The position numbers and the translations under genes were made by a program. From the NCBI GenBank assembly GCA_030141605.1, contig JAQGDQ010000370.1:166088-230087 (forward strand): a DNA stretch of 64,000 bases, written 5' to 3'. This DNA comes from Tubiluchus corallicola. Taxonomy: Eukaryota > Animalia > Priapulida. The notes under the pieces are model-generated. The model ran no database searches. It worked only from the letters and a program-made list of their open reading frames with translations, and was not told the DNA's origin. Of the stretch, positions 5,291 through 64,000 are shown piece by piece (the first letter of the stretch is position 1; every line of letters begins with the position of its first letter).

Positions 5291-5764
5291 TTAAGATTGG
5301 ATATGGATCGTGTACTGAAATTTAAACGGACACTCTCGCTTTTATTATTTTAGATGTGCTGTAAAAGTGTCTATTGCTTCTAATACTTAACTTTTTTATA
5401 TTTGTATATATTATATGTTCTATTGCACCCATTATTCGTTTCAGTGTACTAAAAAAAATGTTGAATTGAAATTGAGTTCAATTAAAATTTTGCGAACACA
5501 AAATTAGATTTCTGTGGTAACAATTCATTCAAGTAAATCATTAAAATATAATGTTCCCGTTCAATATTTGATACGTTAGATTGTTTTGAGCCATTGTTTA
5601 AGATTGGGTCCTGTATCCCTTTAAGTGGAATGGTAGATAATAGAAGGTCAAACAGGTCTTCATGTGCAGTAGATGAATGTGTAAGTGGATGGAGCTTTGA
5701 TCAAGCGTAGAACAAGGCTGGCCTTGTTTAGCAGGTTACGTGAAAATAGAAACCTCTTCATTTG

Positions 5765-6644
5765 CAGGGATGAGAATGACAAAATGCAAAAAACTCTGAA
5801 ACAGGACGGGGTTTTGGGGGCCGTGTAGGAGCCCCCTTGGAGCTAGCAACAAATTGCAATTTTGTGACCATAGAGAGCCTCTAATTGTACTTAAAATATC
5901 AGTTACCTTGTTTCATGCATAATTTAAAATACCAAACTATCAAGGATACATGATACCTAATTGTCTCAAAAACGCCTAAGTACTGGCCGCTCCTATGCAA
6001 AAGTATATAAAAACTGTCTGCAATTGACTCAAATAACTCCGCACAATTGATTCTATATTTTTATACATAGAGATATACACGTGGTTACACTGATGTACGT
6101 GATGTAAACAAAGTGACGGCCTGCCAACTAGCGGTCAGCTTGTGAAATAATGTACTGGGTCCGTAAAAATTTTCTCAACAAATTTACGCGATTTACAAAA
6201 ATGGCACTACTGGTCTTCCAAAAGCTCGGAATTTCCGTGTATCCGCAGAAAATTCTCATCCCTGGACATTAAATGCTAACAATAAGAAAGTGACGCGAGC
6301 AACAAACCTTGTCTCCCTCCACTACATCAAACTCTACGATCTCTCCGTCACCCACGCTGCGTAGGTACTTGCGCGGGTTGTTCTTAATAATAGCCGTCTG
6401 AAAAAGCAATAAACATAAACAGCTAGCTTTTGCAATGACACCGAATGGACTTTCGTAAAGTGACCGTCCTGCCTTAAAACCTAGGCGTGTTTGTCAGCCT
6501 TATGTAGTTTTAACCATTCTGTAACGACCGCAGAAATTAGAAACCAACTAGCGTAAAACTTTTCTCAACGAATTTACAAAAATGGCACTACTGGTCTTCC
6601 AAAAACTCGGAATTCCGCGTATCTGCTGAAAATTCTCATCCCTC
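5765..6644 (+). mobile_element. Composite hAT-like MITE (CAGGGATGAGAAT family) carrying a captured exon
   Basis: Complete MITE at 5765-6264, about 280 bp of cargo, then a second right end at 6544-6644. CATTTG directly flanks both outer ends (5759-5764, 6645-6650). Confidence 0.8.
6308..6397 (-). pseudogene. Orphan Y-box binding protein (cold-shock domain) exon
   Basis: 90-nt phase 0/0 exon, TTTTTCAG|...|GTTTGT, encoding [30 protein letters not shown], nearly identical to the YBX1 CSD exon. No neighbouring YBX exons were found in the window. Confidence 0.85.
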
Positions 6645-6771
6645 CATTTGATAATAATAATAATCTTTTTATTTATGTTGCAACACACGCACAGTTGTAC
6701 TACAATTAATTTGGAAACAAAAATGTGAAGAAAGGGCAGCGAAAGACCTTAAGGTGTAATCTTTAATAGTA

Positions 6772-7252
6772 CAGTTAACCTCCGATATAAGGGACACCTC
6801 CGTACCAGAAAAAATCGTCTCTTATATCCGATGTCCCTTATAGCCAAAGTTGAGTCAGACCAAGGGTGTATCTAGACCTGTACTTTTACCCATATTTTTA
6901 TGGATTATTGCTACACATTCAGACATTCAGTGCAAACGGTATGTAGGAAGCTCCTTCAGTGTTGCGAGATGTACGTGACCGCGGAAACCGAGCTGTTCGA
7001 AGGTCGAGTTCGCAAAAAAGTGAGGTTAAAAATTGATAAATTTCGCTTCAATCATAGGGCCCTTTAGATGCGAGGTAATTTACCTGGGTTTCTATTACGC
7101 GGGACCTGAAGATACCGTCCCTTTTAACCGAAAGTCTCTTATATCCGAGTACCTTATATACGAAGATTTTTACATGGGAAAAACATTACGAAAAATCGGG
7201 ACCGCTGTTGGTGGTCCCTTATAAGCGAGTACCTTATACCTGAGGTTGACTG
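6772..7252. mobile_element. Tc1/mariner (pogo/Tigger-like) MITE
   Basis: TA|CAGTTAACCTCCGATATAAGG ... CCTTATACCTGAGGTTGACTG|TA. Confidence 0.8.
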
Positions 7253-7479
7253 TAGTTGTAAATTGTAATGTTTCACATTACTTCACATTGTTTAGCATTT
7301 ACTGTAAGAGTTTATGGTTTGCTGCAGATGTTATTATCAATCATTATCTTTCATTTTATAGCTAAATACATTTTACACAACAGTGCTGTTTTCGTGCACC
7401 AAACATTGATGGTCATTCCATAACTGATTTGTCTACTCTCTTGAACCAGCAATAGCGTAATTTTATTTTCAGAAGCCTA

Positions 7480-10180
7480 ATGGCAGAATCCACATTGCCT
7501 AACGAGCAGCCGGAAGAAGATGCTGCCGCCTTGCAGTTTCCCAAAGGTAAGCCCTAGGAGATTCTTACAGGATTGATTTATGTCAGATCTGACAACTTGA
7601 ACTCTGTATCATAAAAGGGGGGGGGGGCGCAGATTGTGTTCGCAAGCCGAGCAAGACTGTTAATCTCTTTTAATTGTAAGTGACTAAGGTAAAAGACTGT
7701 ACAGGTTTTAGTCTTTGTTTTGCAGCTCTCGAGAACATATAGAATACATCAAAACTGAACACCTCTGAACTGAGAGGTACAGTAGCTGCTTTTTGTGCAA
7801 CGTGTTTCCGAGATGTAGGCTCTAGTGCCATTTAATCAGCGAATGGCAAAATGCATCTAGCAGCAAAGAACTACACAAAGCAAATACTTAATTACCAGTC
7901 TGTAGTAATAATTCTTTCATGTAAGCCCTTCTTGACAAAATAGTATGTTCCATTTCAATATTTTGTAGACTAGACTGTCTTGAGTTATAGTTTAAGATTG
8001 CGCCTGGTTTTCCTTTAAACAATTCCTGATCACATCATACAAAAATCCATTGGTCTTTCGACTAATTTGCTGCAAAGTGATAGAGTAAAATAGCATCAAT
8101 GTTGTGGGTACTATATACAATAGCATCAATATTGTGGGTACAATATACAATAGCATCAATATTGTGGGTACAATATACAGTAGCATCAATATTGTGGGTA
8201 CAATATACAATAGCATCAATATTGTGGGTACAATATACAATAGCATCAATATTGTGGGTACAATATACAATAGCATCAATATTGTGGGTACAATATACAA
8301 TAGCATCAATATTGTGGGCACAATATACAGTAGCATCAATATTGTGGGTACAATATACAATAGCATCAATATTGTGGGTACAATATACAATAGCATAAAT
8401 ATTGTGGTACAATATACAATAGCATCAATATTGTGGGTACAATATACAATAGCATCAATTTTGTGGGTACAATATACAATAGCATCAATATTGTGGGTAC
8501 AATATACAATAGCATCTATATTGTGGGTACAATATACAATAGCATCAATATTGTGGGTACAATATACAATAGCATCTATATTGTGGGTACAATATACAAT
8601 AGCATCAATATTGTGGGTACAATATGCAATAGCATCAATATTGTGGGTACAATATACAATAGCATCAATATTGTGGGTACAGTATACAATAGCATCAATA
8701 TTGTGGGTACAATATACAATAGCATCAGTATTGTGGGTGCAATATACAATAGCATCAATATTGTGGGTGCAATATACAATAGCATCAATATTGTGCTACA
8801 ATATACAATAGCATCAATATTGTGGGTGCAATATACAATAGCATCAATTTTGTGGGTACAATATACAATAGCATCAATATTGTGGGTGCAATATACAATA
8901 GCATCTATATTGTGGGTGCAATATACAATAGCATCAATATTGTGGGTACAATATACAATAGCATCTATATTGTGGGTACAATATACAATAGCATCAATAT
9001 TGTGGGTACAATATACAATAGCATCAATATTGTGGGTACAGTATACAATAGCATCAATATTGTGGGTACAATATACAATAGCATCAATATTGTGGGTGCA
9101 ATATACAATAGCATCAATATTGTGGGTGCAATATACAATAGCATCAATATTATGGGTACAATATACAATAGCATCAATATTGTGGGTACAATATACAATA
9201 GCATCAATATTGTAGGTACAATATACAATAGCATCAATATTGTGGGTACAATATAAAATAGCATCAATATACGTAAAAAAAATATGTGATAGTAACATGC
9301 CTGTAACCTGCATAATATTTTTTCACAGTGGTACAAAACAATGAGTAATGCTACAGAACAGTTTGTTACATCAGAGTATTAGTGAGACTCAAAGATTTAG
9401 CGTGGCACATTCGCGCATCTTGTAACCTAACGGCAGCTATTCTCAAGACCGTGCTAGAAAATATCGTTTTCTGTGAACTATTGTAATCTATCTTTCTCCA
9501 TTTTAAGTTTTTTTCTCGTTTAATGATAAAATTTTTACTGCACATGTATTTATTTTATAACAGTGATTGTAAACACATTGTAAATTATTTTATATTGTAT
9601 TATATGGCAAGGAGAAGTGCTACATACCTGCTGCCATTTTCTTTGTAAAAATGCATTTTTATGAATGTTCTTAAATAAAAAAACTAAACTAAAATCATAG
9701 GCTGCTTTTAGATGGTTGAAATATAGAGTTGTTTGTCAGCAAATTCTCTTTTGAACCCATTTTATTATTTCAGAATTATTGAATATACCAAAATGCTGAA
9801 TGACACCTATTGGTGAATCACATTTTTCATCATTAGATTTTAGTAGCTTTGATTACACTTGTTCAATATGATAAACCATGTAATAGACTATAATAGATCA
9901 AGAAAAATCATTTCCATTATCTGTTTTTATAATCACTTGTAGTCGTAATTATTTCTATTAAATCTATTCCCAAACCTAAAGAGCCCTATAGCCTGCTAGT
10001 TCTTTTTTTATAAGATACTATACATTTTATAAACGTTCTTAATAGTAATACCACTACTGCTGCTACTGCACTGCTACTACTACTACTACTACTACTACTA
10101 CTGCTACTGCTACTACTACTGCTACTGCTACTACTGCTACTACTACTACTACTACTACTACTACTGCTACTCTGCTACTG

Positions 10181-17284: not shown

Positions 17285-17645
17285 CAGGGATGAGAATGAC
17301 AAATTGCAAAAAACTCTGAAACAGGCCGGGGGTTTTGGGGCCACCTAGGCCCCCAATGGGGTTGAAATTGTAATATTGTGACCACAGAGTAAAAACTGTC
17401 TGCAATTGACGCAAATAACTCCGCACAATTGATTCTATATTTTTATACATAGAGATATACACGTGGTTACACTGATGTACGTGATGTAAACAAAGTGACG
17501 GCTTGCCACCTAGCGGTCAGTTTGTGAAATAATGTATTGGCTCCGTAAACATTTTCTCAACGAATTTACGCGATTTATAAAAATGGCACTACTGGTATTC
17601 CAAAAACTCGGAATTCCGCATATCCGCGCAAAATTCTCATCCCTG
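17285..17645 (+). mobile_element. hAT-like MITE (CAGGGATGAGAAT family), internally deleted copy
   Basis: Both TIRs present. Flanks CAGAAATG / CACAAATG. Confidence 0.88.
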
Positions 17646-18481: not shown

Positions 18482-35191
<16,710 letters not shown>

Positions 35192-39082: not shown

Positions 39083-63111
<24,029 letters not shown>

Positions 63112-63534
63112 GTATTCGTGCCTCCTGGTTATTAAATAGATTTTTTCAGTTTGAAAGTGTGTGAAGTTTGAGCACCCCTGATAATCTTTTTAATCCGACT
63201 AAAGCTTTAAGGTTTAAAATTACGATATTGAAGATAATAACAAATTCAGAAGTGTTTAAACACAAACACCAAGAAGAACAATTACTATGCTGACCACTCT
63301 CTTCGGATACAGAAAGAGTTGTCATAAATTGATCTGTGGGAAAGGCAGATAGATAAATAAAATCATCTTTACACTCAGATCTCAGTTTGCCGGACAAAGT
63401 GGGGAGATGTCGATCCGAATTTGGCGATTGTCTGTATTTACTAATACTAAGCTAATATAGTAGGTGCCGCGTATTAGATTCACGGTAATCTAGAATCAAT
63501 CGCCTAATTACCTTAAAAACATCTAGTACGGGTC

Positions 63535-63700
63535 ACTCCAATGCAAAAGTATATAAAAACTGTTGGCAATTGACTCAAATAACTCCGCATAATTGACTCT
63601 ATATTTTTGTACATAGAGATATACACGTGGTTACACTGATATAATAATCTAAACAAAGTGATGGCCCGCCATCTAGCGGTAGGCTCGCGAAACAACTGTC
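63535..63700 (+). mobile_element. Internal fragment of the CAGGGATGAGAAT MITE family
   Basis: ATGCAAAAGTATATAAAAACTG..CACGTGGTTACACTGAT..CTAGCGGT, without TIRs. Confidence 0.7.
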
Positions 63701-64000
63701 TGTGTCCATAGGATGCGGAACTTTTAATGGTCCAGATTTTGTCCGATTCTTCTGATATCAGATATCGGAATTGCAGAAATGCAGTTCAAAGCATAACAAG
63801 GAATAATATGAAGCAAAAAATTAATAAAATTCAATGTAGAGCAAAAAATGACATCAAACAAAAGCAACAAAAATCAACTCAAAACAGAAATGCAATTCAA
63901 AGCATAACAAGGCATAACATCAAGCAAAAAATTCAATATAGAGAAAAAAATAATACCAAACAAAAAAAGCAACAAAAATCTACTCAAAGCAAAAATGCAA

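What the first reader, a model, noticed from the sequence alone, without database searches (positions are those of the whole stretch)
5765..6650. Intact Y-box (cold-shock domain) exon packaged inside a composite hAT-like MITE
Seen: a complete MITE (5765-6264), about 280 bp of foreign DNA and a second right end (6544-6644). The whole unit is flanked by CATTTG, whereas the inner right TIR is not. The cargo holds a 90-nt minus-strand exon (6397-6308) with a pyrimidine tract, AG and GT, encoding [30 protein letters not shown]. Known: this is the phase 0/0 internal CSD exon of YBX1/2/3-type genes. I found no flanking YBX exons (KWFNV..GYGFI, EDVFVHQ, AANVTGP) in the window. Inference: the transposon family transduced a splice-ready, frame-preserving exon from a YBX locus, a Pack-TIR-like exon-shuffling unit, now sitting antisense just upstream of the POLR2D coding exons. 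It is absent from the ORF track.
Basis: partly seen in the sequence, partly recalled or inferred. Interest (0 to 1): 0.88.

Follow-up and report, generated by a model that had tools for sequence, protein, structure and literature searches.

The report
YBX exon copied between MITE ends
A 279-base piece of a Y-box gene, holding one whole exon, lies backwards between the ends of a small jumping element upstream of an RNA-polymerase gene; it is likely an extra copy made when a broken element was repaired from a sister copy, a known kind of accident that is probably inert here.

Summary
The anatomy is real: a 500-bp MITE, 279 bp of YBX DNA with one 90-nt exon (AG/GT intact), a second, different MITE right end, and a 6-bp TSD around the whole unit. 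Public contigs show a second version of the cargo. It differs by 13 substitutions and 3 indels, and the shared path runs on into non-MITE DNA exactly at 6543. A spliced YBX contig matches this second version at both diagnostic exon sites, so it is the likely parent. The parent likely also has a MITE end at the same spot. The best reading is therefore repair of a broken MITE copied from a sister MITE in a YBX intron, running 279 bp past its end (0.55). Transposition of a composite is the rival (0.3). The copy appears single, is antisense to POLR2D and encodes only part of a cold-shock domain. No contig crossed the 6543/6544 junction, so that join is unverified. This is Pack-TIR-like, but of the donor-linked kind that Tan et al. 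2021 excluded. The scan has noted exon captures by MITEs in other genomes before.

The parts
5759..5764 (.). left target-site duplication CATTTG
   Evidence: chance 0.0007
5765..6264 (+). full-length MITE (13-bp TIRs) of a high-copy family; likely a hybrid of the resident left arm and the right part of the YBX-intron copy (inferred)
   Evidence: 92.5-94.1% identical to 5 other window copies; TIRs; thousands-fold summed contig depth over flanks (not a copy number)
6265..6543 (-). 279-bp cargo from a YBX gene: 146 nt upstream intron, exon, 43 nt downstream intron
   Evidence: no second match in window; second version in runs X1, X2, X3, and a contig leaving the window sequence exactly at 6543
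6308..6397 (-). 90-nt phase 0/0 YBX exon encoding the C-terminal part of the cold-shock domain; open frame, AG and GT intact
   Evidence: the same borders are used in spliced contigs of run X6
6398..6420 (-). splice acceptor AG and pyrimidine tract
   Evidence: no listed difference between the two versions over 6399-6428
6544..6644 (+). right-end stub of a second MITE copy, with 30-nt and 9-nt deletions and a terminal C in place of G
   Evidence: 86 of 93 identical to inner end; k-mers carrying the 9-nt deletion are common in X2 (depth 1650 and 750)
6645..6650 (.). right target-site duplication CATTTG
7473..7546 (+). neighbour: POLR2D (RPB4) first coding exon, ATG at 7480, preceded by an AG acceptor, so the unit may lie in a 5'-UTR intron (inferred, untested)
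   Evidence: next exon 10496-10676 matches Pfam RNA_pol_Rpb4 at E 9e-8

Best explanation
The unit is a likely single, likely inert extra copy of one YBX exon, probably made when a MITE already sitting upstream of POLR2D broke and was repaired by copying a sister MITE that lies in a YBX intron. Step 1 (TSD shown, order inferred): a MITE inserted here and made the CATTTG duplication. Step 2 (supported by contigs): another family member sits in the YBX intron, 43 nt past the exon's donor site. Step 3 (inferred): after a break inside the resident MITE, its left arm invaded that sister copy by homology, and synthesis ran through the sister's right TIR and 279 bp into YBX DNA. Step 4 (inferred): the new strand was end-joined, without homology, to the remaining right stub of the resident MITE, which lost a further 30 nt between short repeats. 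No transposase step is needed after step 1. The exon faces away from POLR2D and encodes only part of a cold-shock domain, so it likely makes no protein.
For: (a) In X2, 6399-6534 is held by two contigs: one identical to the window (depth 186) and one with 10 substitutions and 3 indels (176.6). The POLR2D exon contig has depth 169.2. If these were two alleles of one locus, the POLR2D contig would need more than all of its k-mers at half depth (f = 1.07 in X2, 1.31 in X1). (b) The merged contig leaves the window exactly at 6543 and runs 166 nt into sequence that is not MITE and not in the window. Its depth there, about 194, fits one of the two versions only. (c) Spliced contigs in X6 use the same exon borders, continue into the next YBX exon, and carry G at 6326 and 6389 like the non-window version in X1 and X3, unlike the window. 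All 4 X6 differences are synonymous. (d) The non-window allele 6280G lies in contigs that run unbroken into the inner TIR (X1 from 6239, X2 from 6248), and one search lists no loose end at 6265 among its 3 loose-end rows, so the parent likely has the MITE end at the same place. (e) Inner and outer right ends come from different copies (86 of 93), and the outer TIR has lost its terminal G, which fits an old resident element better than a fresh jump (weak). (f) Transposition-independent gap filling is reported as the main origin of single-copy Pack-TIRs (median cargo 224 bp, 13.4% exonic; PMC8277862 sections 7, 8, 10). Repair-mediated duplication inside TEs is reported in PMC2671141 (abstract, sections 6, 7).
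Against: The tool warns that contig depth is no copy number, and X1/X2/X4 are one sample that may be the source of the assembly. The differences between the two versions are clustered (10 of 13 substitutions within 76 nt, p = 0.004 by permutation), and both exon differences are synonymous (chance about 0.05-0.12's fractions). That looks like divergence between working alleles rather than decay of a dead copy, so the capture must be recent and from a different parent allele, or the copy is constrained. The linkage of 6280G to the parent version is inferred from graph shape, not read directly. No microhomology is visible at 6543/6544. A chimera point inside the 500-bp MITE was not found: its per-bin divergence looks like that of the other copies. 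A flush TSD fits transposition of the whole unit equally well.
Confidence: 0.55

Rival explanations
1. The composite formed at or near the YBX gene and was then moved here by a transposase, which made the CATTTG duplication. It would have formed by a template switch (FoSTeST) or because a donor haplotype had a second MITE end 279 bp from the first; the transposase used the left end and the outer right end, bypassing the inner TIR. This is.
For: Perfect flush 6-bp TSD around the whole unit, the length seen at 2 of 6 other family copies. The parent appears MITE-linked, as in the end-bypass model (PMC8277862, passages). The stub keeps about 100 bp of subterminal sequence, as does the copy at 31250-31910.
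Against: The parent version seen in X2 has no MITE end after 6543, so an extra insertion and deletion on an unseen donor haplotype must be assumed. The outer TIR lacks its terminal G. Only one non-parent version was seen in X2.
Confidence: 0.3
2. The two versions are alleles of the one resident YBX exon. Either the assembly mis-joined that allele into the POLR2D-site MITE through MITE homology, or the YBX gene really runs across this window with very long introns.
For: The pattern of differences (exon synonymous only, splice flanks unchanged, intron middle diverged) is what working alleles show. X1 depths of the two versions (6.15 and 8.05) are near those of other single contigs (4.9-13.6).
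Against: The depth arithmetic does not fit. The X6 spliced contigs match the other version at both diagnostic sites. The 6543/6544 join has no homology for an assembler to slip on, and a TSD closes the unit. A resident gene would need its upstream exons more than 57 kb away with POLR2D nested between, and its next exon more than 6.3 kb away.
Confidence: 0.1
3. The copy is kept by selection as a regulator: POLR2D pre-mRNA read through it would carry 90 nt antisense to YBX mRNA, or a minus-strand transcript would splice the exon in frame.
For: Frame and both splice sites intact, 2 of 2 exon differences from the parent version synonymous. Depth suggests both haplotypes of sample S1 carry it (weak). 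Pack-TIRs are often co-transcribed with hosts, and one worm case alters the rpb-4 5' UTR (PMC8277862 section 10).
Against: A recent capture explains the intact state without selection. The window's exon alleles do not appear in the two X6 contigs. The plus-strand cargo has stops in all 3 frames.
Confidence: 0.05

Closest known systems
Single-copy Pack-TIRs of animals made by gap filling (Tan et al. 2021, PMC8277862; abstract, sections 7-10, 12, 14, passages and a supplement word search seen)
   Same: Non-TE cargo of 100-5000 bp between ends of one TIR family; hAT-type ends are the commonest class (208 of 370); size near the 224-bp median; exon capture is common (13.4%); apparently single copy.
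   Different: Here a complete inner TIR remains and the parent is itself MITE-linked. That paper excluded parents with a TE within 100 bp and says it may miss such cases. The left switch would be by MITE-to-MITE homology rather than microhomology.
End-bypass (3' transduction) by TIR elements, as cited for Drosophila P elements in PMC8277862 (passages only; the original paper and the figure were not seen)
   Same: A whole element plus the DNA next to one of its ends is duplicated; the parent keeps the element.
   Different: End bypass uses a chance TIR-like downstream sequence as the new end. Here the new end is a real 100-bp MITE right end from another copy, which the parent version seen does not have.
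Repair-mediated duplications inside TEs (Pace et al. 2009, PMC2671141; abstract, sections 6 and 7 seen)
   Same: A short unique sequence with one donor, inserted in a TE, with deletions at the breakpoint; exons and splice sites are among the cargo.
   Different: Most described cases have the donor within 5 kb; here the donor is not in the 64-kb window. Their survey covers vertebrates.
hAT6 group of hAT transposons (6-bp TSD; PMC12730594, passages only)
   Same: 6-bp TSD at 3 of 7 two-ended units in the window; short TIR starting CAGGG (its likeness to hAT ends is recalled, from no call).
   Different: No transposase was found or tested; other superfamilies also make 6-bp TSDs (IS3EU in the same passages).

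Membership tests
Pack-TIR (Tan et al. 2021 criteria) | cargo of 100-5000 bp flanked by two TIR-element pieces of one family, each covering at least 10 bp of a terminus | tested here: met
   279 bp between 5765-6264 and 6544-6644; outer terminal base mismatched
Pack-TIR (Tan et al. 2021 criteria) | a unique parental copy of at least 90% identity and similar length | tested here: inconclusive
   a second version with 13 substitutions and 3 indels over 279 bp is seen in contigs, but no genome was held, so locus and uniqueness are inferred
Pack-TIR (Tan et al. 2021 criteria) | parental copy has no TE within 100 bp | tested here: not met
   the non-window allele 6280G runs unbroken into the MITE TIR in X1 and X2; linkage to the parent is inferred
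Pack-TIR (Tan et al. 2021 criteria) | not a retrocopy (introns kept) | tested here: met
   146 nt and 43 nt of intron flank the exon; the spliced X6 contigs leave the window at the exon borders
Multicopy Pack-TIR / FoSTeST | several copies with distinct TSDs | tested here: inconclusive
   only two cargo versions in X2, of similar depth; depth is not a copy number
Gap-filling model | plain element without cargo at the orthologous site in other haplotypes or species | not testable with these tools
   no genome or raw reads; an X1 contig with 7 differences enters the MITE left end at 5765 but does not reach the cargo
End-bypass transduction | parent linked to the element | tested here: met
   (inferred from contig paths)
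End-bypass transduction | new end taken from a cryptic TIR-like sequence in the parent's flank | tested here: not met
   the parent path continues in non-MITE DNA at 6543; the outer end is a true MITE stub
hAT6 | 6-bp TSD | tested here: met
   3 of 7 two-ended units; one other shows a 7/8 8-mer, three show none
hAT6 | hAT-type transposase of the partner element | not tested
   no autonomous partner was identified in the window (ORF lists)
YBX (Y-box) gene exon | sequence and borders of the 90-nt cold-shock-domain exon | tested here: met
   spliced X6 contigs
Cold-shock domain (PF00313) | whole domain above the Pfam cut-off | tested here: not met
   13.9 bits against 27; model positions 37-56 of 66

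The most novel reading that the evidence does not exclude
A natural case of TIR read-through transduction in an invertebrate: a very abundant MITE family whose copies sit in introns exports neighbouring splice-ready exons by ignoring one TIR and closing on a borrowed second end, then jumps as a composite. This class was filtered out of the published animal survey, so a genome-wide count in this species could show it to be a common route of exon shuffling.
Probability: 0.2. Interest if true: 0.55.

Novelty: new variant of a known kind. Interest (0 to 1): 0.33.

Why it matters
If the parent really keeps its MITE, this is an example of the donor-linked captures that the main animal Pack-TIR survey excluded by design. 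It would show that repair between dispersed MITE copies can move whole exons with both splice sites over long distances. The two mechanisms make opposite predictions at this one site (plain MITE versus empty site in other individuals), so a single PCR panel can test them. The biological effect of this particular copy is probably nil: it is antisense to its neighbour and encodes a domain fragment.

Tried and rejected
No RNA holder was listed; X6 came in by species label and its RNA status is the tool's guess, although its contigs behave as spliced. No contig in X2, X3, X4 or X6 covered 6544-6549, the cargo-to-stub join. A hole proves nothing: short links into high-depth repeats are plausibly pruned from such contigs (recalled, not tested). 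No empty-site joint (5764 to 6651) was among the 15 of 124 joints shown. X3, a second sample, showed only the non-window version over 6285-6441 at depth 8.1; at that depth this is no proof that it lacks the copy. A local tandem duplication of the MITE end was rejected (86 of 93 identity, different indels). A retrocopy was rejected (introns kept). The search for a chimera point inside the MITE was uninformative. The bacterial promoter scan does not apply to an animal. An exact search for the MITE left end in metagenome contigs found 0 matches. The homologue search confirmed YBX but did not fix the taxon; among the named best matches are molluscs, tunicates and vertebrates, and an invertebrate host is my inference. 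Literature: no paper on YBX exon capture appeared or 44 (listings only), and 0 hits for YBX, Y-box, cold shock or CSDA in the 12 supplement files of PMC8277862 held as text. Figures and any picture tables were not visible, so a listed case could have been missed.

Full report
Observation. A 13-bp TIR opens a 500-bp element at 5765 and closes it at 6264. Then come 279 bp with no other match in the window and a 101-bp right end (6544-6644). CATTTG lies flush on both sides of the whole unit. A 6-mer match at this spacing arises in 143 of 200,000 random pairs. The element belongs to a family with six other two-ended copies and one fragment in the 64 kb; the five compared are 92.5-94.1% identical to it. 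Of the six others, two have a perfect 6-bp TSD, one a 7/8 8-mer and three none. So 6 bp is a plausible but not uniform family TSD, as in hAT6 (PMC12730594, passages); no transposase was tested. The outer end is not a duplicate of the inner one: 86 of 93 aligned bases match, it lacks 30 nt and 9 nt, and its last base is C rather than G. The 9-nt deletion is a common family variant in run X2.

The exon. 6397-6308 on the minus strand is 90 nt between AG and GT, with an open frame. It matches YB-1 at E 1.3e-12 and sits between HQ and G.EA.NV in most of the 120 homologues listed (96 and 90 of 120). It covers only model positions 37-56 of the Pfam cold-shock domain, below the cut-off; that it lacks the RNP1/RNP2 motifs is recalled knowledge. 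No other YBX exon is in the window. POLR2D lies on the plus strand, with its first coding exon at 7473-7546. An AG 7 nt before the ATG suggests an upstream untranslated exon, so the unit may be intronic; this was not tested. Either way the exon is antisense to POLR2D.

Is there a parent? No genome was held, so contigs of public runs were laid on the region. X1, X2 and X4 are one sample, possibly the source of the assembly; X3 and X6 are other samples. In X2, 6399-6534 is held by two contigs, one identical to the window (depth 186) and one with 10 substitutions and 3 indels (176.6). They merge at 6505, and the merged contig leaves the window exactly at 6543 for 166 nt of sequence that is neither MITE nor in the window. 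Its depth beyond the split works out at about 194, one version's worth. The POLR2D exon contig has depth 169.2. Treating the two versions as alleles of one locus would need more than all of that contig's k-mers at half depth. The tool cautions that depth is no copy number, so this is support, not proof. X6 holds two contigs that leave the window at the exon borders: one continues into the next YBX exon, the other stops matching at 6400, where the last codon of the upstream exon would equal the acceptor. They differ from the window at 4 sites, all synonymous. At 6326 and 6389 they agree with the non-window version in X1 and X3. So the spliced YBX mRNA seen is not from the window's version, and a resident-gene reading is unlikely.

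The parent is MITE-linked. The non-window allele at 6280 lies in contigs that run unbroken into the inner TIR (X1 from 6239, X2 from 6248), which hid no loose-end rows, lists none at 6265. The simplest reading is that the YBX intron itself has a MITE right end at this base. The link between 6280G and the parent version is inferred from graph shape. The cargo is therefore bounded on one side by the parent's own MITE and on the other by a join, with no visible microhomology, to an internal point of a different MITE copy.

Mechanism. Best reading (0.55): a MITE already at the POLR2D site broke internally; its left arm was repaired by copying the sister MITE in the YBX intron; synthesis ran 279 bp past the sister's TIR; and the strand was end-joined to the resident right stub. 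One event then explains the outer TSD, the TSD-less inner TIR, the two unlike right ends and the single copy. Rival (0.3): the composite formed at the YBX locus and was transposed here, which explains the TSD equally well but needs a second MITE end that the parent version seen does not have. Rival (0.1): alleles plus misassembly, or a resident gene. Rival (0.05): a selected antisense regulator. Results against my reading: the differences between versions are clustered in the intron middle (10 of 13 within 76 nt, p = 0.004) and the exon changes are synonymous, which looks like allele divergence and forces a recent capture from a different allele. No switch point was found inside the MITE. The 6543/6544 join was not covered by any contig laid and remains unverified.

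Comparison. It works like the single-copy Pack-TIRs of Tan et al. 2021 (PMC8277862; abstract, sections 7-10, 12, 14, passages, supplement word search) and the repair-mediated duplications of Pace et al. 2009 (PMC2671141; abstract, sections 6-7). It fails one Pack-TIR criterion, a TE-free parent, which that paper used as a filter while noting that it may miss end-bypass cases. It also fails strict end bypass, because the new end is a true MITE stub. I file it as a variant of a known kind. Searches showed no report of a YBX capture. The scan's own notes list six similar captures of gene pieces by MITEs in other genomes (unchecked), so the kind is recurrent.

Verdict. Real anatomy, probable duplicate, known class with one mechanistic twist, no sign of function. 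Interest 0.33.

Noticed in passing
window 31250-31910: Same MITE family: about 180 nt left end, about 380 nt middle that matches neither the family nor the rest of the window, about 98 nt right end, perfect 6-bp TSD AATAAA. A second candidate capture, or a subfamily with a different interior; no clear coding frame.
   Followed up: partly
window 6772-7252: A TA-flanked element with short inverted ends, very high contig depth, between the composite and the first POLR2D coding exon; likely a Tc1/mariner-type MITE (recalled class).
   Followed up: no
window 6317-6346 (run X6, record 13): The YBX mRNA contig begins and ends with the same 30 letters, forming a 285-nt loop in the graph: a cDNA or assembly artefact, a back-joined RNA or a tandem repeat.
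   Followed up: no
window 19385-19909, 39884-40406, 46780-47281, 17285-17645: Three family copies have no flush TSD (at 46780-47281 the matching 6-mer is displaced by 10 nt) and one shows a 7/8 8-mer, hinting at frequent end rearrangement or variable TSD length.
   Followed up: partly
window 63503-63710: A 210-bp internal piece of the MITE embedded in different sequence; loose ends near 5979, 6062, 6100 and 6140 in three runs show other elements sharing this interior module.
   Followed up: no
window about 380-1150: Repeated TAGGGTTACCATAC-type ends and a short broken reading frame starting near 968 suggest a decayed DNA transposon of another family (class recalled).
   Followed up: no
window 7473-7546: Coincidence: the worm Pack-TIR example in PMC8277862 section 10 also lies upstream of the RPB4 gene and supplies alternative 5' UTRs there.
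   Followed up: no
window 18482-24154 (-), 43074-44759 (-): Exons resembling a cation-diffusion-facilitator metal transporter, and a 561-codon reverse-transcriptase-like frame of a LINE (names recalled, not searched).
   Followed up: no
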